Positions 19,891 to 64,000 of a stretch of 64,000 nucleotides of DNA are shown here, in pieces. Both the position numbers and the translations under genes were made by a program. Each line of letters begins with the position of its first letter. Position 1 is the first letter of the stretch. The notes beneath the pieces are model-generated. The model did no database searches. It saw only the letters and a program-made list of their open reading frames with translations, and was not told where the DNA came from. Source of the stretch: Lama guanicoe (lineage: Eukaryota); the NCBI GenBank assembly GCA_013239625.1, contig MU053561.1, positions 5,878,439 to 5,942,438 on the forward strand, read 5' to 3'.

Positions 19891-20369
19891 GACAGGCATC
19901 AAGTGCTCGTCAAACGTTGGTGGATTTCTGCTTTACTCAATTCTCCCCCAAAAATCTGTAAGGCAGCCTCGACTCATACCTTTTTGGTACTTCTCCATCA
20001 TTACTTAATTTCATCACTTCAACAGCATCATAGGGTTGTGAGGATAATTCGGGTGAGCAGCTAAGTATATAATCGGCCCTTCAGAATTGTTAGCTGTAAT
20101 TATAGCTTGTTCCAAACCTTCAGTGTCCATAAAAATGTGGCCTCTCTGCATGCTCATTTCTCCGTATTTCCGACACACAGTGTCGCCACCCTCAGACCAG
20201 CTCTTCTCTGCCGATTTCTGTATTTAATACCCACCACTCATCTGATGCTCTGTAGTATGGAAGTTCCACCACCAAAAGCGCCTATAAGGTTGCTTCTATT
20301 ACTGTTGCCATTTTAGAGAGCAGGAAACAGGCCCTGAGGGTTTGAGTGACTTCCCCAAGGTCACGGAAC

Positions 20370-21800
20370 TCAAGCGGCGAGAGCGTGCGCTCTTAAGCCT
20401 CTGGCTTTCGGCTCCTTCCTGGGTCCGAGGTGCACCCGCTTCCATTCAAACCCTGCCCAGCCCCCCACTTCCAGTCGCTTCCTCGCTCGTCCGCGCGCCC
20501 GTTGCCCGCCACACCTGAGTCAGGCCCCTGGGAGCACGCCCCATCAGTCCGTGGCGGTTTTCCCCTTTTCTCCGCCACAGACTGAGGGTGAGATCGACGA
20601 TGATGTCCCAGACGCGAGTAGGTCACCCCGCGGTCCTCCGAGGGCGGGCCTGAGGGACGAGTCCCAACGAGGAGCGCGGCGACGCTGTCCACGCCGCACG
20701 GCGGGGGCGCCGCGCGCGGGTCTTGCCGGGCCTCCGGTCACGTAGCGGGGTTGGGGGGGCGCCAGCGCGAGCGAGCGGGCGCGCGCCTGAGAGCTTGTTG
20801 AGGCGCGAGTCGCTGTTAGGGAGTGAGGAGGGGGAAGAGGGGGCGGCGGCCGGGAGGGCCGACTCCGCCCTGTGTGCGCATGCTCCGGCCCCGGCGGGTT
20901 ATAAGGCAGCCTCACGGGCCCGGCCCGACAAAGTGCTGGCGAGCTGCGACGTGACTGCCCCGGCGCGTGGGTGCCCCGGCGAGTGAGCCAGGCGGCCGGC
21001 GAAGGACGCGACCTGGACCCTGGGCCCCGTGGAACTCCAGCTGCGCCGCCGCGTCACGCTCACGCGGCGCCGCAAGCCGCGCATAACGGTTAGTTGGTAA
21101 CTGCCGGCCGCGCGCTCGGCGCAGACCCCGCGGTGCCCTTGCTTCCTCGGCGTGGTCGGAGGGAGCCTGGGGGAGCGAGAGGTTGGTCTCCCGGGGAAGA
21201 GGAGGGGCGGCCGGGCAGGGGCATCGCGGCCGCAGCAGCCACGTGGCCTCAGAGCGTAGCGCTGGTGAAGGAGACCTTGGGTCGCTGGGGACAGCGCCTC
21301 TCCCAGCAGAGCTGCGGCCCCGTTGTCAGGTGCCGGCCACCGGCCCGGCCGAGGAGTAGGGTCGTGATGCCGGTGACCTTGGGGAAGTCTCTTCCCCTCT
21401 AGTCTCCTGTAGGCTCTTCACGAGATGCTTTTGATCTGGAAAAGAGACGACGAGGGGCTGATTCACGTGGTGCCTCCCGACTGCTGGCTGCGTTCTCGGA
21501 GGGAAAGGACTCGGGGCGGGAGTTATTATGGACTCGTGGCATGCCCGCCCCAACCTCCTCAGCCAGCCAATCCTTGTCCCACCTGGTGACCTGCGGTAGT
21601 GATTTGGGGAAGCTGCAGTCCCCGCAGCCAAGGCGTGACTGCAGGGTTCGAGTGGACTTTGCGGAGGGGACAGTGCAGCTGGCAGACGCCGGGAGTGGTG
21701 CTGCCGGGAACTCTTTGTCATTCAACCTGTGGCTGCAGAACGTCCGCCGCAGCGCCCTCGCTCTGGGTCTTTAAGGCGGCCGGGTCGAGAGTAATCTGAA
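20370..21800. promoter_or_regulatory. SLC16A1: CpG island promoter of SLC16A1
   Basis: Very GC- and CpG-rich block in AT-rich surroundings. TATAA 20900-20904, GC boxes, NRF1-like TGCGCATGCTC ~20875-20885, AP-1 TGAGTCA 20516-20522. Confidence 0.92.
20930..21088 (+). other. SLC16A1: Non-coding exon 1 (5'UTR); TSS approximate
   Basis: Starts ~25-30 nt after the TATA box and ends ...CGCGCATAACG|GTTAGT (donor at 21089). Resembles the recalled human SLC16A1 exon 1 end. No upstream ATG. Confidence 0.8.
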
Positions 21801-22121
21801 GCATAGCGTGACACTTGGTCTGATGCACAATTTTTGTTCCAAATACATCCTTTTTTTTCCCCACGTGCATTTAACATTCCTTTTCATGAATTATTTGATG
21901 AGACCAGCTGTTGCCAAAACTAGTTTGTAATTAATCTTAACCAAAAAAATCAAACGTGATTGCAACTCTACCCGAGTTGCCAGTGTCTGATTATAAACTA
22001 AGTCTATTGATAACAGTAAAATGCTTACAAGCTACTTTGTCATAACTAGTTTTTAAGGTTTTTTTCCCCCAAAATTATTCTGGTTTCGAAATAAAATGTG
22101 TACACTTAAGTGCTCTGATAA

Positions 22122-33325: not shown

Positions 33326-34530
33326 TATTAGTAATTAAAATAGTATTTTTAGGGACTATAATTATAAAAGCAAGATCTAGAATCAATTTTCATATATTCT
33401 GAAAGATAGCCTTCTTTAAGCATTCTAGTTAGCAAACAGTTAATTTCTCTTCAAGGATAGTATGTTTAATTTCTTGTAATGTGGGTTGGATTTGGATTTG
33501 CCCTGAATGATAAGGGAGATACAAACAGTTGGAAGTTTACAGAACCAGGTTTACATTTTGTTAGGTTCTTTTTATGCCATTTGATCAAAACCATGCATTT
33601 CATAACTGCTGAGTGTTTGGCTAGCTAGTTACAGTAGTTATATTTCTCCTTTTACTAGTGCCTTCTACTTGTTTATGGTGTTTTTAAAAAATTGTCAGTT
33701 TTTTGTTTGTTTTCTTAATTTAACTATTCAATTTCAAATGGAAAAGAAGGCAAAAGGTGATGCTTCCTAGACCTTGAATGTTGAGATTTACCTTGGGGTG
33801 AGTGGTTCTGAAAGCCATGAAGCTGGATTGAGGCCAGTTATAAAGAGCAGTGGATTAGCTACTTTAGCAGCAACAGCTTCAGTAAATCAGCCTTTCTGGA
33901 TTTGAATGTTTCCATGTGAATGTGAAACCTAAAACTGGTCTACACTTAGTAACAAATTCTTTTTAAGATAATTGATTTAATATACTTTCTGCCTCTTTTA
34001 GGTTCACAAACTGGCCATTGTCATTTTAGCAAATGACAGTGGCTTTGTTTTAAATGTTAATGGAGAAAATGTAGAGAACATAATGAATACTGTTTCTAAG
34101 GGCTTTTGTAACTCTTCTGAAGTTGGGGCATAGCGTGATGGGAAGGGAGATCAGCTTTGACTTTCCATATGTTTACCTGCACAATTCCTGAGAGTTACGA
34201 GAAAAGGAGAGAAATAAGAAAATCTAGAAGGTGGTGCTTGTCACCACTGAGAAAAATGAGGGTTATGTTTCCCATTGTTCTTTACAAATTGAGTTGATGA
34301 AGAACTTCCTCACTACCCTATCACTTTTTTTTTAAATCTTTCTGTCACTTTCAGGCAACTACTAGTGAGTCAAAAAATAATAGCTAAGCTAATAGGAAGG
34401 TTACTGTGCACATTGTAAGGATTAAAGTATTAGACTTTAATCTCTTTTAGCCTCTGGACTTGAGTACTCTCTCTTCTCAGTGGGGCTCTGAATACTGTGC
34501 AAGGGGGCCTGCTCACGTAATTTATCTTTT

Positions 34531-38959: not shown

Positions 38960-39176
38960 ATGCCCCCGGCAGTTGGAGGTCCAGTTGGATACACCCCCCC
39001 AGATGGAGGCTGGGGGTGGGCAGTAGTAGTTGGAGCTTTCATTTCCATTGGCTTCTCTTATGCATTTCCCAAATCTATTACTGTGTTCTTCAAAGAAATT
39101 GAAGGTATATTCAATGCCACCACCAGTGAAGTGTCATGGATATCTTCCATCATGTTGGCTGTCATGTATGGTGGAG
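38960..39176 (+). CDS. SLC16A1: MCT1 coding exon 1 (gene exon 2 starts 38916 with 44 nt of 5'UTR)
   Basis: Acceptor TTCAG ends 38915, ACAATGC start, [39 protein letters not shown] (MCT N-terminal signature, K38), donor G|GTAAGT at 39177, 217 nt. Confidence 0.98.
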
Positions 39177-43405: not shown

Positions 43406-43549
43406 GTCCTATCAGCAGTATCCTGGTGAATAAATATGGCAGTCGTCCAATCATGATTATTGGCGGCTGCTTGTCAGGCTGTGGCTTGATTGCAGCTTCT
43501 TTCTGTAACACTGTGAAGGAACTTTACTTGTGTGTTGGAGTCATTGGAG
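43406..43549 (+). CDS. SLC16A1: MCT1 coding exon 2 (gene exon 3)
   Basis: CCTAG| acceptor, [48 protein letters not shown], donor GTGAGT at 43550, 144 nt, phase 1-1. Confidence 0.98.
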
Positions 43550-45749: not shown

Positions 45750-46090
45750 GTTTTATTTTTTATTTTATTTTTTCACCACCAAAAGTTTATTTCCCATCCA
45801 TCACCACACAGTTGATTGCCTTTACTCATTTCCCCCTCCCCACAGCCCCTTCTTCTCTGGTAACCATTACTCTGTTCTCTGTATCTACATATTTGTTTTT
45901 GTTTGGTTTGGTTTGTTAATTTATTTTGTTTTTGTTTATTAGTTTTTTATATCCACGTATGAGTGAAATCATGGTATTTGTCTTTCTCCTCTGATTTATT
46001 TCACTTAGCATAATACCCTCAAGGTGCAGCCATGATGTTGGATAGAACAATATTTTATCTTTTCTGTATGGCTGAGTAGTATTCCATTGC

Positions 46091-46132
<42 letters not shown>

Positions 46133-46410
46133 CCCATCTTCTTTATCCATTCGTCTATTAACGGACACAGGTTGTTTCTATAACTTGTCAATTGTAAATA
46201 ATGCTGCTATGAATATGAACATTGGATCTTTTATGATTCCACACATATTTTATGATTTTTTGTTCTATTTTTGTAAAAAATGTACTTTGGATTTTTATAG
46301 CCATTGCATTGAACCTGTAGACTGCTTTAGGTAATAAGGACATGTTGACAATGTTAATTCTTCCAACCCATGAGCATAGATTATCTTCCTATTCATTTGT
46401 ATCATTTTGA
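45750..46410 (-). mobile_element. L1 fragment(s) containing a (TA)n(CA)n microsatellite
   Basis: ORF 45916-46191 CPLIDEWIKKM...LEGIMLSEINQ is the L1 ORF2 end. Microsatellite at ~46091-46131. Confidence 0.85.
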
Positions 46411-46512: not shown

Positions 46513-47382
46513 GTCTTGGGCTTGCTTTCAACTTGAATCCAGCTCTGACCATGATTGGCAAATACTTCTACAAGAGGCGACCATTGGCAAATGGACTGGC
46601 CATGGCAGGCAGTCCTGTTTTCCTCTCTACCCTGGCCCCCCTCAACCAGGCTTTCTTTGGCATCTTTGGCTGGAGAGGAAGCTTCCTAATTCTTGGGGGC
46701 TTACTGTTAAACTGCTGTGTAGCAGGATCTCTGATGAGACCAATAGGGCCCAAGCCAAGCACTGCAGAGAAACATAGGTCTAAAGAATCCATTCAGGAAG
46801 CTGGAAAATCTGATGCAATAAAAGGAGCAAGTGATGCAAATACAGATCTTATTGGAGGAAACCCCAAAGAAGAGAAACGATCAGTCTTCCAGACACTTAA
46901 TCAATTCCTGGACTTATCCCTGTTTGCACACAGAGGCTTTTTGCTCTATCTGTCTGGAAACGTGCTCATGTTTTTTGGACTATTTACACCTTTAGTCTTT
47001 CTTAGTAATTATGGCAAGAGTCAGCATTACTCTAGTGAGAAAGCTGCCTTCCTTCTTTCTATTCTGGCTTTTGTTGACATGGTAGCCAGGCCTTCTATGG
47101 GACTTGTAGCCAACACAAAGTGGATAAGACCTCGAGTCCAGTATTTTTTTGCTGCTTCCATTATTGCAAATGGAGTATGTCATCTGCTAGCACCTTTCAT
47201 CAACTCCAGCTATATAGGGTTTTGTGTCTACGCGGGATTCTTTGGATTTGCATTTGGATGGCTCAGTTCAGTGTTATTTGAAACACTGATGGACCTTGTT
47301 GGACCCCAGAGGTTCTCTAGTGCCGTGGGATTGGTGACCATTGTGGAATGCTGTCCTGTCCTCCTGGGGCCACCGCTTTTAG
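46513..47382 (+). CDS. SLC16A1: MCT1 coding exon 3 (gene exon 4)
   Basis: Polypyrimidine tract + CAG| acceptor, [35 protein letters not shown]...[10 protein letters not shown] (catalytic D/R pair)...VLLGPPLL, donor GTATAG at 47383, 870 nt. Confidence 0.98.
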
Positions 47383-49791: not shown

Positions 49792-50069
49792 GTAGCCTGA
49801 ATGACATATATGGAGACTATAAATACACATACTGGGCATGTGGCGTAATCCTTATTGTCTCAGGCATCTATCTCTTCATTGGCATGGGCATCAATTATCG
49901 ACTTCTGGCAAAAGAACAGAAAGCAGAGAAGCAGCAGAAAAAGGAAAGCAAAGAGGAAGAGACCAGTATAGATGTTGCTGAGAAGCCAAAAGAAGTCAGT
50001 GATGCAGCAGAATCTCCAGAGCAGAAAGGCATAGAAGGAGGCCCCAAAGAGGAGGAGAGTCCGGTTTGA
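49792..50069 (+). CDS. SLC16A1: MCT1 coding exon 4 (gene exon 5, coding part)
   Basis: T-tract + TTTAG| acceptor, [39 protein letters not shown]...KEEESPV then TGA at 50067-50069. Confidence 0.97.
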
Positions 50070-58600: not shown

Positions 58601-60108
58601 ATCAAAGTAATGGGCCTCACAAAAACAGACACACAGATAAATGGAACAGGATAGAAAGTCCAGAAATTAACTCACACACTTATGGTCAATCTATGAAAAA
58701 GGAAGCAAGATTACACAATGGAGAAAAGACAGTCTCTTCAATAAGTGGTGTTGAGAAAACTGGACAGCTACCTGTAAAGACTGAAATTAGAAAATTCTCT
58801 AACATACACAAAACTAAACTCAAAATGGATTAAAGACCTAAATATAAGATCAGATATTATAAAAGTCCTAGAGGAAAACAGGCAGAACACTCTTGGACAT
58901 AAATTGCAGCAATATTTTTTTTGAAACAGCTCCTGGAGTAATGGAAATAAAAGCAAAAATAAACAAGTGGTACCTAATTAAACTTAAAAGGTTTTGTACA
59001 GATAAGGATACTATCAACAAAATGAAAAGATAACCTACAAAATGGGAGAAAATACTTGCAAATGACGTGACCAACAATGGACTAATTTCCAAAATACACA
59101 AACAGCTCATACAGCTTGATGTCAAAAAAACAAACAACCCAATCAAAAAATGCGCAGAAGACCTAAATAGACATCTCTTCAAAGAAGACACCCAGATGAC
59201 CAATAGGCAAGTGAAAAGATGTTCAACATCACTAATTGTTAGAGAAATGCAAATCAAAACTATAATGAGGTATTACCTCATACCAGTCAGAATGGCCATC
59301 ATTAAAAAGTCTACAAAAAATAATAATAGAATTAAAAAATTAAAAGTCTACAAATGATAAATGCTGGAGAGGATGTAGAGAAAAAGGAACCCTCCTATAC
59401 TATTGGTGGGAATGTAAAACGATGCAGCCACTATGGAAGACAGTATGAAGGTTCCTTAAAAAGCTAAAAATAGACTTACCATATGGTCCAGCAATCCCAC
59501 TCCTGGGCATATATCTGGAGAAAACTCTAATTCAAAAAGATACATACACCCCAATATTCATAGCACTATTTACAGTAGCCAAGACATGGAAACAACCTAA
59601 ATGCCCACTGACAGATGACTGGATAAAGAAGATGTGGTATATACATGCAATGGAATATTATTCAGCCATAGAATAAAATAATGCCATTTGCAGCAACATG
59701 GATGGACCTAGAGATTATTATATTGAGTGAAGTAAGTCAGAGCAAGACAAATATCATATGATGTCACTTATATGTGGACTCTAAAAATAAAGATACAATG
59801 TTTATTTACAAACCAAAAACAGACTCATGGACATGGATAACAAACTATGGTTACCAAAGGGGAAAGGGCGGGGAGGAATAAATTAGGGACTTGGGATTAG
59901 CAGACACACATTACTATATATAAAATAGATAAACAATGACTTACTGTATAGCCCAAGGAACTATATTCAGTTTCTTGTAATAACATAATGGAAACGACTC
60001 TGAAAAGAAAAAATATATATGTATATGAATAACTGAATCACTTTGCTGTACACCTGAAACTAATGTTGTAAATCAACTACATTTCAATAAAAAATTAAAA
60101 AAAAAAAA
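58601..60108 (+). mobile_element. 5'-truncated L1 (ORF2 3' part, 3'UTR, poly(A))
   Basis: ORF 59067-59357 [16 protein letters not shown]...[30 protein letters not shown] + poly(A) ending at 60108. Confidence 0.95.
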
Positions 60109-60427
60109 GGAATGAGCCTCAAAGGGCAAATATGAAAGAAAGAGTGAGTGAATAAATGAATGGAGACTCTTTCAGATGAGGCTCTGTCTCCTGAGAGCGG
60201 CTGGCCCACTGGCTTCCCTGCTCGGTGCCCTCAGATGTAGTCAGACACAGACTGGTGTTCTTTCAGTACTTGAAGCATCAGTCAACTCCTCTGGGTTTAC
60301 TTTTCTTCTCCCTGGACAATCCTTCGCCTCCCCTATACTTTTAGCTGCCTAACAGGAGGGAGTATGCGCAGGATGCTTTCAGGAACAGTCCATCTAAGTG
60401 CAGGCCATACTCTCCCTGTGAATTCTC

Positions 60428-60430
<3 letters not shown>

Positions 60431-60482
<52 letters not shown>
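60431..60482. repeat. (CA)26 microsatellite
   Basis: Read directly. Confidence 0.97.
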
Positions 60483-60486
<4 letters not shown>

Positions 60487-63222
60487 CCTCAGATGTCTGG
60501 CCGGCTCTCAGGCTCCATTCAACCCTGGGCCACTGATAAGAACAAAGCACCACAAGTTCACCAAGGTGGTGCCACCACGTCAGCCTCCTGACCCTGGTGA
60601 CACCGCCACCTCCCCATCCCCTTCTCGTGATTTTGCACTCATCACTGAAGTGTTTCTCCAAACACTGCTGACAGGCTCCAACGCTGGCAGGTGGCACCAA
60701 GATAGCCTGGGCTCTCTCAGCAGCCTCCCTGCCCCACACGTCCCCTACGGGCCAGCCCCGGCCTCGGGGTCAGTCCCCAGGAAGCTGAGCTGCTTGTGCT
60801 TCTCAGGAAGGAACAGACACCTTGGGAGTCTGCTCAGGACCTGCCACGGGAGTCAGCCCCGCCCACTGCCTGAAAGCCTCCGCCCACACCTGGCAACACC
60901 AACACATACTCACCCAGGCAAGATGCGCAGTGGGCTCTGGGCTCAGGAAGACCTGGCCCCACCATTCACTGGCTGTGTGGCTCTGGGAAGATCACTTTGC
61001 TTCTCTGTGCCTCAGTTTCCTCATCTGTAAAGTAAAATAAGAATGGTCGTATCAGCCAGAGTTCAGTGCTGGAAATAGGAACCAGTTGAGGTATTTTGAG
61101 CAGAAAGTGATTTGATACAGGGGATTATGGCTGGATGGCTGGATCGGGGAGGGGAGGAGGAAGGGCTGAGTCTCCAGAGGATCTGCTCCCTCGGCCTGGG
61201 CAGGAGAGGAAGGTGGGCAACTGGAGGTTGCCACTGGCACCCCTGGGTTCAGGACACACTGACATGGCTGTGATCCAGGGAGCAGGCAGGGCCTCTGCTG
61301 CTGCTGTGGGGGGTGGGGACCACACACTGGACACCACTGCAGGAAAAGATGCACATCTATCTGACCCTGCTGGCCAGAAGGGAGCAGCCAAAGCAGCAGG
61401 AAGGCAGCCTCTGGCTCCCTTCCACCTTCCAAACCCCATGTGAGGGTCTTCATGTTGGATCACAATATGAACCCTCTACTCCCAAAGGAGTTGGTCTGGG
61501 AGGTGAGGCTTTAGCTTCCTGCCTCCCAAGGGCAGCAGACAGGTGGGAACAGATCCTGGGTGCTACTCAGCCACCGGAGGATTAACTGCATGTATGACTA
61601 GAGGGACCCTCCCCAGTCTGGCACACAGCACATGCCAAACAAAGGTGGGCTCCGGCCAACACTGGTTATGGCTGCACGCCTGCCACGTGCCAGCACTGGG
61701 CCAGGTCCCGGGAGACCTGAAGAAGTGAGCCGGCTCCAGGAGGAGCAAAAACTGGGATCGCAAAGGCAAGCATCAATGTTGTAAAAGCCTGGGGAGCACA
61801 GGGAGCTGGGGGGGGCACCCAGGCCAGTCTTGGGGGTGAAGAGGGGAGGGAGGAAAGCGCCAGTTTCCCAGTACTACTGGTGTCTAACGTGAGGCCTAAA
61901 GAAGAACTAGAAATTAACCAGACTAAGCAGGAGGAAACAAGGTGTGTGTGCACGTGTGTCTATGAGACAATGCTAATTTCCACCCTGAAAGCATATACAC
62001 ATAGAAAACCCTCGAAGATAAAGGGTGCTTGGCATTTTCCACGAGAGGACAGTTCAGTCTGACCAGTGCACAGAGTGGTGGGTGGGGGTAGTGAGTAAGA
62101 AATGAAAGAGAGGAGAGCAGGAGCATGGAGATCTCATGGGGCTTTACATGTCATTTTTAAAATAATTTGAATTTTATCCTGTGGGCAATGGGGATGCATG
62201 GTAGAGTTCAAGCAGGGAGAACGCTCACCATTTTGGTCTCAGTAATATCACTTTAATGTGGTTTGTGCAGTCGGTTGGAAGTGAGAAGGATTTCAAATAC
62301 AATACTGCAGTGCTGGACTGGAAATATGGTTGCTGGGAGGAAGACAAGGGAAAAGGTAGAGCCGGTTCAAGGGAGTCTAGGAGGAGGCAGAGTGAACAGA
62401 GAGGAGTAGGAGCAGGGAGGAACCTGGGGTGGCTGCCAGGTTTCAAAGCAGGCACACCCGGAAAGGTGGGGCCCCATCAGCTCCTAGCACTTGGCCCTGG
62501 GTGGTGCCCACCCACAGGCTCCCCACCTCGAATTCTGGACTGAATTCACATGAAGTTCCTTCCCTCCCATCAACCTTATGGCCTGCACACAATTCAGTTC
62601 CAGCAATATTTATTGATATTTATTTATTCATTATTATTAAGCTACTATGTGCCAGGAACCAGGGAGGCTTCCCTCTGCCTCACCTAAGGGAGTTTCAACT
62701 GGATGCCTGAGAGGTTCTGGAGCAGGGAGGGATATGCAGGGAGAAGGGAAAGGCTGTGCACACATAGCCCGAGTTTAGGCCTCTCTCTTCCCCCAGCACT
62801 GGAGTAGCTTGACCCCTGATCTCTCATCCCCATGACAGAAAAGGTACAAGGGACATCAGCACAGCCTCAGTCAGAGCCCCTGGGCCCCCGCTTCTATTGG
62901 GGCAGACAATAGAGACAGGCAGCCACCCCTGGCCTCCTTCTGTGTGCCTTCTGCTGTGAGATCCCAGATGCAATGAGAGGCTCACCTGGGCCTTGCTGCC
63001 TGCCATCCCATGGACTCAGCCCTTACAATCAAGGAAGTTTTCCAGAGGCTCTCCTCAACTGAGACATTAACCCTGTTACTGTCTGGGTAACACAATAACT
63101 TCTTACCGATTCACTATCACAGGGCAGAAGCTCAGGCCAATTATAGGACTGCTTTTGTCACAGCCCGCAAGAGAGGCCTGGAGCCATCCCACATGGGTCT
63201 AGGAATTGGAGAATAATGATAG

Positions 63223-64000
63223 CGTTACTGAACCAAATTTGGGTCTTGTCGACTGAAATAAATGCAGTCTAAAAGTTGAGAATTATGTTTTATTTGCTGG
63301 ACGATTCTGAGGACTCGAGCCTCTCAGATCACTCTGAGGGACTGCTCGGAAGAGGTAGGGGAGGAGCTAGGATATATAGGAGTTTTACAATAAAGACCAA
63401 GCAGTTGGAACATTAAAAGGTTACTTGTTAAGTAAAGAAAACCACACAACTCAAGTTAAAGAATTTAGTGCTTTTCTGTGTATGGGAGGGAGCAAACATT
63501 TGGGCTCAATGAATTCGTTCCTCTGACAAGCACCTAGCCATCTAGGGCCAGTATCCTGGCCTTTGTTATTCTGAGTGCCCTCAGAGTGCACCATTGTGAA
63601 TGGCTGCAGAGGCTGGGCTGCAGGCTTGTCTTCACTGGGGGGTGGCGGGCAGCCGCTGATGACTTGATGGCTTCAGCATTCTTTGCTTATTGTTATGGCT
63701 TGCAGTATTTTTCGTTGTCTGCTCACCCAACACTCAGCAAAGCCAAATTACTGACAGTGGGTTGTGGTAAAGGAAAGCACAGCGCTTACTGCAGCTGTGA
63801 CCCAGCGAGGACAGGCGGCTCATGCTCAAAGGACCCTCACTGCCAGGTGGCTTTCAGGGAAGGGTCTTTAAAGGTAACATCTGAGATGAGGGTTGCGGGG
63901 TGCATGACCTTCCCGTTTGGTTGGCAGTGAGGTAACAGGGTGATATGTCAGGAATCTTAATCACAACCTTCTGGTTCTAACCGGTCTGGGATCCAGCAGT
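63223..64000 (-). mobile_element. Outer ERV LTR interrupted by the inner LTR; runs off the window
   Basis: CGTTACTGAACCAAATTTGGGTCT continues as GCTCACCCAACACTCAGCAAAGCCAAATTACTGACA...GGTTGTGGTAAAGGAAAG, resembling a laurasiatherian LTR terminus recalled from memory. Confidence 0.5.
63247..63716 (-). mobile_element. Solo ERV LTR (inner, nested)
   Basis: Starts TGTCGACTG. Minus-strand TATA (63373-63378) lies upstream of minus-strand AATAAA (63289-63294). Flanked by GTCT/GTCT. Confidence 0.6.

What the first reader, a model, noticed from the sequence alone, without database searches (positions are those of the whole stretch)
47190..47216. Apparent compensated frameshift (+1 then +2) remodelling the MCT1 TM9-TM10 loop
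Seen: exon 4 reads GCA CCT TTC ATC AAC TCC AGC TAT = A-P-F-I-N-S-S-Y. Removing one C after CCTTT and CC after ACT gives CCT TTA TCA ACT AGC TAT = P-L-S-T-S-Y. Recalled: human MCT1 has LAPLSTTY here and its exon is 867 nt versus 870 nt here. Inference: two small insertions about 7 nt apart restored the frame, rewriting three residues and adding one in a highly conserved, essential transporter. That would be a rare lineage-specific event in a foregut fermenter that uses MCT1 for short-chain fatty acid and lactate transport.
Basis: partly seen in the sequence, partly recalled or inferred. Interest (0 to 1): 0.72.

Follow-up and report, generated by a model that had tools for sequence, protein, structure and literature searches.

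The report
Alpaca MCT1 loop gains one residue
The alpaca lactate transporter MCT1 differs from the dromedary's only in one short outer loop, where two amino acids became three, likely through one small complex mutation and likely with little effect, since tarsier, squirrels and guinea-pig relatives also carry an extra residue in that loop.

Summary
The window's SLC16A1 encodes a protein identical to alpaca RefSeq MCT1 (502 aa); dromedary MCT1 (501 aa) differs only here, Leu-Ser versus Phe-Ile-Asn. Pig, hippo, whales, donkey and dog read PLSSSY, so the ancestor was not PLSTSY. The substitution-free two-insertion reading is +C at 47198 and +AA or +AC 3-4 nt later. No camel DNA was obtainable, and 7-16% of simulated insertion-plus-substitution products also allow such a reading, so the alignment alone is weak. 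Either single frameshift would be a predicted null, and published rates favour one complex indel over two sequential frameshifts by about 80-fold or more (with my assumptions). The site is the variable, extracellular TM9-TM10 turn, which gained a residue four times in mammals; the predicted fold is unchanged. The foregut-fermenter story fails: dromedary and ruminants lack it. Whether llama, guanaco, vicuna and all alpacas carry it is open. The scan's earlier notes held no match. New member of a known kind; modest interest.

The parts
47196..47204 (+). Codons Phe349-Ile350-Asn351, which stand where dromedary and other laurasiatherians have Leu-Ser; net +3 nt
47198..47198 (+). Inferred +1 base (C) in the substitution-free two-insertion reading
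   Evidence: inferred from the camel protein, camel DNA not seen
47202..47204 (+). Inferred +2 bases (AA at 47202-03 or AC at 47203-04); the two placements cannot be told apart without camel DNA
47202..47210 (+). Asn-Ser-Ser, a new N-X-S sequon absent from dromedary; predicted not to be glycosylated because it sits in a 3-residue turn
46513..47382 (+). SLC16A1 large coding exon (870 nt), open throughout
38960..39176 (+). SLC16A1 first coding exon (217 nt from ATG)
43406..43549 (+). SLC16A1 second coding exon (144 nt)
49792..50069 (+). SLC16A1 last coding exon to the stop codon

Best explanation
After the split from Old World camels, the alpaca line's MCT1 gene had two codons (Leu-Ser) replaced by three (Phe-Ile-Asn) at the outer end of helix 9, likely in a single complex insertion-deletion event that never broke the reading frame, and the change likely persisted because this turn tolerates an extra residue. 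Shown: the protein difference, its confinement to this site, and three other mammalian gains of a residue in the same loop. Inferred: the ancestral DNA (3-4 nt replaced by 6-7 nt), the one-step origin by error-prone repair or replication, and near-neutrality. Predicted: the extra residue extends helix 9 by one position and leaves a 3-residue turn, away from the substrate residues.
For: Only 1 site differs between alpaca and dromedary MCT1 over 501 aligned residues; two independent substitutions both landing beside an insertion has probability 1.6e-5 (uniform) to 6.8e-5 (weighted by column variability), so the changes are clustered. A substitution-free reading exists for 2 of 1296 possible Leu-Ser-Ser-Ser codon sets. 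Either single frameshift gives a stop after 375 or 354 codons, 103 or 167 nt before the last exon junction, a predicted null by the recalled 50-55 nt decay rule; the mouse null is embryonic lethal (PMC3867350 abstract) and human heterozygotes can have ketoacidosis (PMC6039204). Complex indels replacing 2-10 bp by 1-11 bp are 4.8% of human de novo indels and arise in one event (PMC4448676). Rate sketch per base per generation: complex net +3 indel 5e-13 to 2.5e-12; sequential pair 4e-18 to 6.4e-15. Tolerance: 30 of 388 proteins held have a 5-residue loop, 329 a 4-residue loop, 29 did not match the pattern; a tree of 44 chosen rows with the loop removed needs 4 gains (bootstrap 4-5). Phe after the proline also occurs in tarsier, guinea pig and the camelid paralog. 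AlphaFold2: helix 326-350, coil 351-353, helix 354-383, local pLDDT 84-86; TM-score 0.95 to 7DA5 by target length.
Against: No camel or other mammalian DNA for the site was obtained, so the ancestral codons are inferred. No template for the new bases was found: no single template switch or direct copy within 150 nt explains them. The rate sketch uses human rates, an assumed genome size and an assumed 2-10% share of net +3 events. Biba et al. (PMC8935012) conclude that their compensating pairs mostly arose sequentially. Isoleucine at the second loop position is seen in none of the other 65 aligned sequences, and no transport assay exists, so neutrality is not shown. The dromedary model is of lower quality (mean pLDDT 58.6), so the two models cannot resolve small differences.
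Confidence: 0.66

Rival explanations
1. An ordinary in-frame 3-nt insertion (for instance a slip; the site reads as a TCA-TCA tandem) followed by two to four separately fixed substitutions in the neighbouring codons, relaxed or compensatory.
For: Needs only 2 substitutions if the camel Ser350 codon is AGC (3 of 1296 codon sets). 7-16% of simulated insertion-plus-substitution products (107-241 of 1500 per setting) mimic a substitution-free +1/+2 pair. The other three lineages show simple one-residue gains here.
Against: Ser350 is probably TCN: it is replaced by Ala (8), Pro (2) and Phe (1), reachable in one step only from TCN, never by Gly, Ile or Arg; Asn occurs in 2 marsupials; both fish loci read TCA. 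With TCN, 3-4 substitutions are needed in a protein with no other camel-alpaca difference.
Confidence: 0.17
2. True sequential compensation: a +1 or +2 frameshift segregated as a heterozygous null, perhaps buffered by the second MCT1-like gene of camelids, until a second insertion 3-4 nt away restored the frame.
For: Substitution-free +1/+2 alignment. MCT1+/- mice develop normally. Camelids have an intact-looking MCT1-like paralog of about 82% identity. Selection would keep only closely spaced pairs here, so the short distance does not by itself exclude two steps. Biba et al. favour sequential origin in general.
Against: Expected rate about 80 to more than 10,000 times lower than one complex event. 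Both intermediates are predicted nulls. All five vertebrate high-confidence pairs of Biba et al. are 7-99 nt apart and include a deletion, and pairs favour weakly conserved genes.
Confidence: 0.1
3. The sequence is an assembly error, or an allele confined to the reference animal or part of the species.
For: Only one named species record has FINSS among 388 proteins held. Seven DNA runs, three labelled with the same organism as the full holders, have share 0.94, about 5 missing words, near the 3.8 words expected to overlap the site; this fits absence of the change, an unrelated variant or contig breaks equally.
Against: Four runs from four samples of one study hold all 89 words. Three RefSeq accessions from what appear to be two annotation rounds (inferred from the number series) give the identical protein. 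Two cancelling errors 3-4 nt apart outside long homopolymers are unlikely.
Confidence: 0.04
4. Gene conversion from the camelid MCT1-like paralog, whose loop begins with Phe, supplied the new sequence.
For: All 11 camelid paralog records read PFSSSY; from that peptide a substitution-free +1/+2 reading also exists (A 47199 plus AA or AC).
Against: The paralog has no extra residue, no Ile and no Asn here, and its distinctive flanking residues on both sides are absent from alpaca MCT1, which matches dromedary MCT1 exactly. It could explain at most the Phe.
Confidence: 0.03

Closest known systems
[quoted passage not shown]
   Same: Aligns as two indels of 1 and 2 nt, sum divisible by 3, on one branch, no intermediate seen, in a locally variable part of the protein.
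   Different: Only 3-4 nt apart (their high-confidence vertebrate cases 7-99 nt), both insertions, in a gene essential in mouse, seen so far in one species; better explained as one event. SLC16A1 is not in their table 2 or the supplement held; their 468-gene low-confidence table is on FigShare and could not be seen.
De novo complex indels (Kloosterman et al. 2015, PMC4448676) and frame-restoring indel pairs in gnomAD (PMC7253413, 1406 pairs within 30 bp)
   Same: A few bases replaced by a slightly longer string (3-4 by 6-7 nt), net in frame; within the 2-10 bp by 1-11 bp range described.
   Different: Here it distinguishes species records rather than a human pedigree; no palindromic or neighbouring template was found, as they found for 8 of their 14 cases.
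Mammalian MCT1 (SLC16A1), human cryo-EM structures 6LZ0, 7DA5, 6LYY
   Same: Orthologue with the same 12-helix fold; K38, N187, D309, R313 and the Phe matching human F367 are present (their roles are recalled, D309 also from the 7DA5 title).
   Different: One extra residue and a new N-X-S sequon at the TM9-TM10 turn.
One-residue insertions in the same loop in tarsier, Sciuridae and caviomorph rodents
   Same: Five residues instead of four between the invariant Pro and Tyr.
   Different: Those keep Leu/Phe-Ser and add a residue further along; alpaca rewrites the first two positions.

Membership tests
pCFM (Biba et al. 2022) | Two indels of 1-2 nt whose lengths sum to a multiple of 3, seen in a nucleotide alignment | tested here: inconclusive
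   A substitution-free +1/+2 reading exists against the camel protein but no outgroup mammalian DNA was available, and 7-16% of null products allow such a reading.
pCFM (Biba et al. 2022) | Both indels on the same branch, no extant single-indel state | tested here: inconclusive
   Dromedary lacks and alpaca has the whole change; llama, guanaco, vicuna and Bactrian camel MCT1 were not among the proteins retrieved.
pCFM, high-confidence set | Derived state shared by more than one species and supported by transcript or protein data | tested here: inconclusive
   One named species only; four full-share runs are of unrecorded kind; no read-level view.
pCFM, sequential origin | An uncompensated frameshift allele persisted before the second indel | not testable with these tools
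   Only a rate comparison was possible; it disfavours this path.
Complex indel (single-event deletion-insertion) | A few bases replaced by a different short string at one spot | tested here: met
   Minimal description from either inferred ancestor is 3 nt to 6 nt or 4 nt to 7 nt; conditional on the inferred ancestral codons.
Complex indel (single-event deletion-insertion) | Origin in one generation | not testable with these tools
   Needs pedigree or population haplotypes; supported only by clustering and rates.
Short-range template switch | New bases copied from a nearby inverted or direct template | tested here: not met
   No single-switch solution within 150 nt from either inferred ancestor, using alpaca flanks.
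MCT1 / SLC16A1 orthologue | Intact four-exon coding sequence, MFS fold, key transport residues, placement with canonical MCT1 rather than the MCT1-like paralog | tested here: met
   100% to alpaca MCT1, about 81-82% to the paralog.
Used N-glycosylation site | N-X-S/T at least about 12 residues from the membrane on both sides | tested here: not met
   Sequon present at 351 but in a 3-residue turn between helices in the model; 12-residue rule from PMC3226467; MCTs are described as not glycosylated.

The most novel reading that the evidence does not exclude
The only amino-acid change separating alpaca from camel MCT1 is a true two-step frameshift rescue through a null allele sheltered by the camelid MCT1-like paralog, or a selected change fixed in all South American camelids that retunes lactate and short-chain fatty acid transport (or basigin Ig-domain contact) for high-altitude life.
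Probability: 0.1. Interest if true: 0.7.

Novelty: new member of a known kind. Interest (0 to 1): 0.3.

Why it matters
It is a clean natural experiment: two transporters identical at every other residue, so any functional difference maps to one turn. It is also a caution for screens of compensating frameshifts: pairs a few bases apart are more likely single complex mutations and need no passage through a null allele. The repeated gains show the TM9-TM10 turn of MCT1 tolerates insertion, useful for choosing tag or epitope sites. Beyond that it is probably of small biological effect.

Tried and rejected
Outgroup DNA: metagenome scan gave only two fish-like loci; prokaryote, viral and plasmid collections gave nothing; no whole genome is held. 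Other FINSS carriers: three protein searches and three cluster look-ups found only the alpaca record; large clusters were only partly listed (15 of 71, 15 of 53), so llama, guanaco, vicuna or Bactrian members could be hidden. Read-level confirmation was not obtained. Guessing which 31-mers the run index samples failed (10 hash settings; one gave 89 words, taken as coincidence). Template switch within 150 nt: none; an 11-nt inverted match at 34291, 13 kb away, treated as chance. PLSTSY and PLSTTY as ancestors: rejected. Foregut-fermenter adaptation: rejected. Glycosylation of the new sequon: unlikely. Runs with share 0.07 or 0.00 (5 of 24) were not used. Literature: searches listed no paper on this change (titles and abstract starts only); SLC16A1 was not found in the supplements of PMC8935012, PMC7331169 (only SLC16A12) or PMC6598621. 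The last script line failed on one row (porcupine hydropathy), not used. No complex-prediction job was sent: no binding claim is made.

Full report
What is there. The window holds a complete SLC16A1 on the + strand, coding exons 38960-39176, 43406-43549, 46513-47382 and 49792-50069. Their product is identical to Vicugna pacos MCT1 (XP_006213722.1, XP_072824073.1, XP_072824074.1; 502 aa). Against human and mouse PDB chains the window has one extra residue exactly here.

The right comparison. Camelus dromedarius MCT1 (501 aa) is identical to the alpaca protein except for Leu-Ser in place of Phe-Ile-Asn at 349-351. Pig, hippo, baleen and toothed whales, donkey and dog also read PLSSSY; cattle and reindeer read PLSSTY. 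So the change arose after the split from Old World camels, and the ancestral peptide is PLSSSY. Of all ways to remove one base and a separate pair, only two give PLSSSY: C 47198 with AA 47202-03 or with AC 47203-04. The putative insertions are therefore 3-4 nt apart. Because dromedary and ruminants keep the short loop, foregut fermentation does not explain the change.

Is it real? Four runs from four samples of one study, not flagged as the source, hold all 89 sampled words of the exon; the possible source run holds 0.98, two runs of another organism label 0.97, seven runs of three labels 0.94, five RNA runs 0.71 (20 of 24 listed rows hold some part). About 3.8 sampled words should overlap the site, and the chance that none does is about 0.018 if sampling is independent. 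An assembly error is thus unlikely. Against a claim of fixation: the 0.94 runs miss about five words, which fits absence of the change as well as an unrelated variant, and three of them carry the same organism label as the full holders. No read-level view was obtained, and no llama, guanaco, vicuna or Bactrian MCT1 was among the 388 proteins held; only the window and the alpaca record contain the FIN motif.

How did it arise? Two allow a +1/+2 origin with no substitution; a single 3-nt insertion needs at least 2 substitutions, and only if the first serine codon is AGC; with TCN it needs at least 3. TCN is favoured by the residues that replace this serine elsewhere (Ala 8, Pro 2, Phe 1, Cys 5, Thr 11, Asn 2, Ser 184; no Gly, Ile or Arg) and by TCA in both fish loci. 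The clean +1/+2 reading is, however, weak evidence alone: 107-241 of 1500 simulated insertion-plus-substitution products per setting also allow it. The stronger point is clustering: no other residue differs, so two independent substitutions beside an insertion have probability of order 1e-5 to 1e-4, unless the insertion itself relaxed or selected them. That leaves two frameshifts in sequence, or one complex event. A lone +1 stops after 375 codons and a lone +2 after 354, both well before the last junction, so either is a predicted null; the mouse null is embryonic lethal while heterozygotes develop normally (PMC3867350, abstract in listing), and human heterozygotes may or may not have ketoacidosis (PMC6039204, passages). 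Using the insertion rates and selection coefficient in Biba et al. (PMC8935012; parts 1-2 of 7, passages and supplement search seen) and the 2.94 indels per generation with 4.8% complex in PMC4448676 (passages), plus my own assumptions (2.8 Gb genome, 2-10% of complex indels net +3, s from 0.0005 to 0.05, rescue window 5-80 nt), one event is expected at 5e-13 to 2.5e-12 and a sequential pair at 4e-18 to 6.4e-15 per base per generation. One complex indel is the best reading. Biba et al. themselves favour sequential origin for their set, while noting that correlated double events would shift this.

What does it do? In the AlphaFold2 model (66-sequence alignment, mean pLDDT 69.6, 84-86 locally) helix 9 runs to residue 350, a 3-residue turn follows, and helix 10 starts at 354; the dromedary model (mean 58.6) has helix to 349 and the same 3-residue turn. 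The alpaca model matches human MCT1 structures (7DA5 TM-score 0.95 by target, rmsd 2.0). With 12 helices and cytoplasmic ends this turn faces outward. Basigin's helix binds TM6 in the other half, though its Ig domain extends over the outer face (PMC8154325, passages), so contact is not excluded. The flanking Pro348 and Tyr354 are invariant in 66 sequences, but the residues between them are among the most variable of the membrane core. Of 388 proteins held, 329 have four residues there, 30 have five and 29 did not match the pattern (fragments or distant paralogs, mostly not inspected; rows are not independent). On a tree of 44 hand-picked sequences built with the loop removed, the five-residue state needs four gains: alpaca, tarsier, squirrels, caviomorphs. 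The new Asn-Ser-Ser sequon is too close to the membrane to be used by the 12-residue rule (PMC3226467, passages). Near-neutrality is the likely outcome, but Ile at this position is not seen in the other 65 aligned sequences and nothing has been assayed.

Known or new? Compensating indel pairs and complex indels are known kinds (PMC8935012; PMC4448676; PMC7253413, passages, 1406 frame-restoring pairs in gnomAD). My searches and supplement look-ups showed no report of this case, but the 468-gene low-confidence table of Biba et al. lies outside the held files and includes alpaca among its species (vicPac2 appears in the supplement), so it may be listed there. The scan's own notes held nothing matching. 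Verdict: real, a new member of a known kind, interest 0.3; the bolder reading (true two-step rescue or an adaptive change) about 10% likely, interest 0.7 if true.

Noticed in passing
proteins P0109, P0163-P0172 (not in the window): Camelids carry a second, intact-looking MCT1-like gene (490 aa, about 81% identical); similar 'MCT1-like' copies occur in carnivores, rhino, whales, bats and rodents. It differs at 13 of about 418 compared residues between dromedary and alpaca, against 1 site in MCT1. One paper search listed nothing on it.
   Followed up: partly
P0013; P0022, P0173-P0180, P0276; P0310, P0313, P0315, P0316: Independent one-residue gains in the same MCT1 loop in tarsier, all squirrels sampled and four caviomorph rodents, absent from mole-rats and gundi.
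   Followed up: yes
   Followed up: no
P0077, P0296-P0299: The cattle MCT1-like representative has the same TM9-TM10 sequence as cattle MCT1, unlike the camelid paralog, hinting at gene conversion or a recent copy in bovids.
   Followed up: no
window 20001-22000 and 60001-64000: G+C-rich islands (0.61 and 0.50-0.54 against about 0.36); the first may hold the SLC16A1 promoter and non-coding first exon.
   Followed up: no
window about 46090-46140: A TA/CA dinucleotide repeat in the intron before the large exon, seen in the translations.
   Followed up: no
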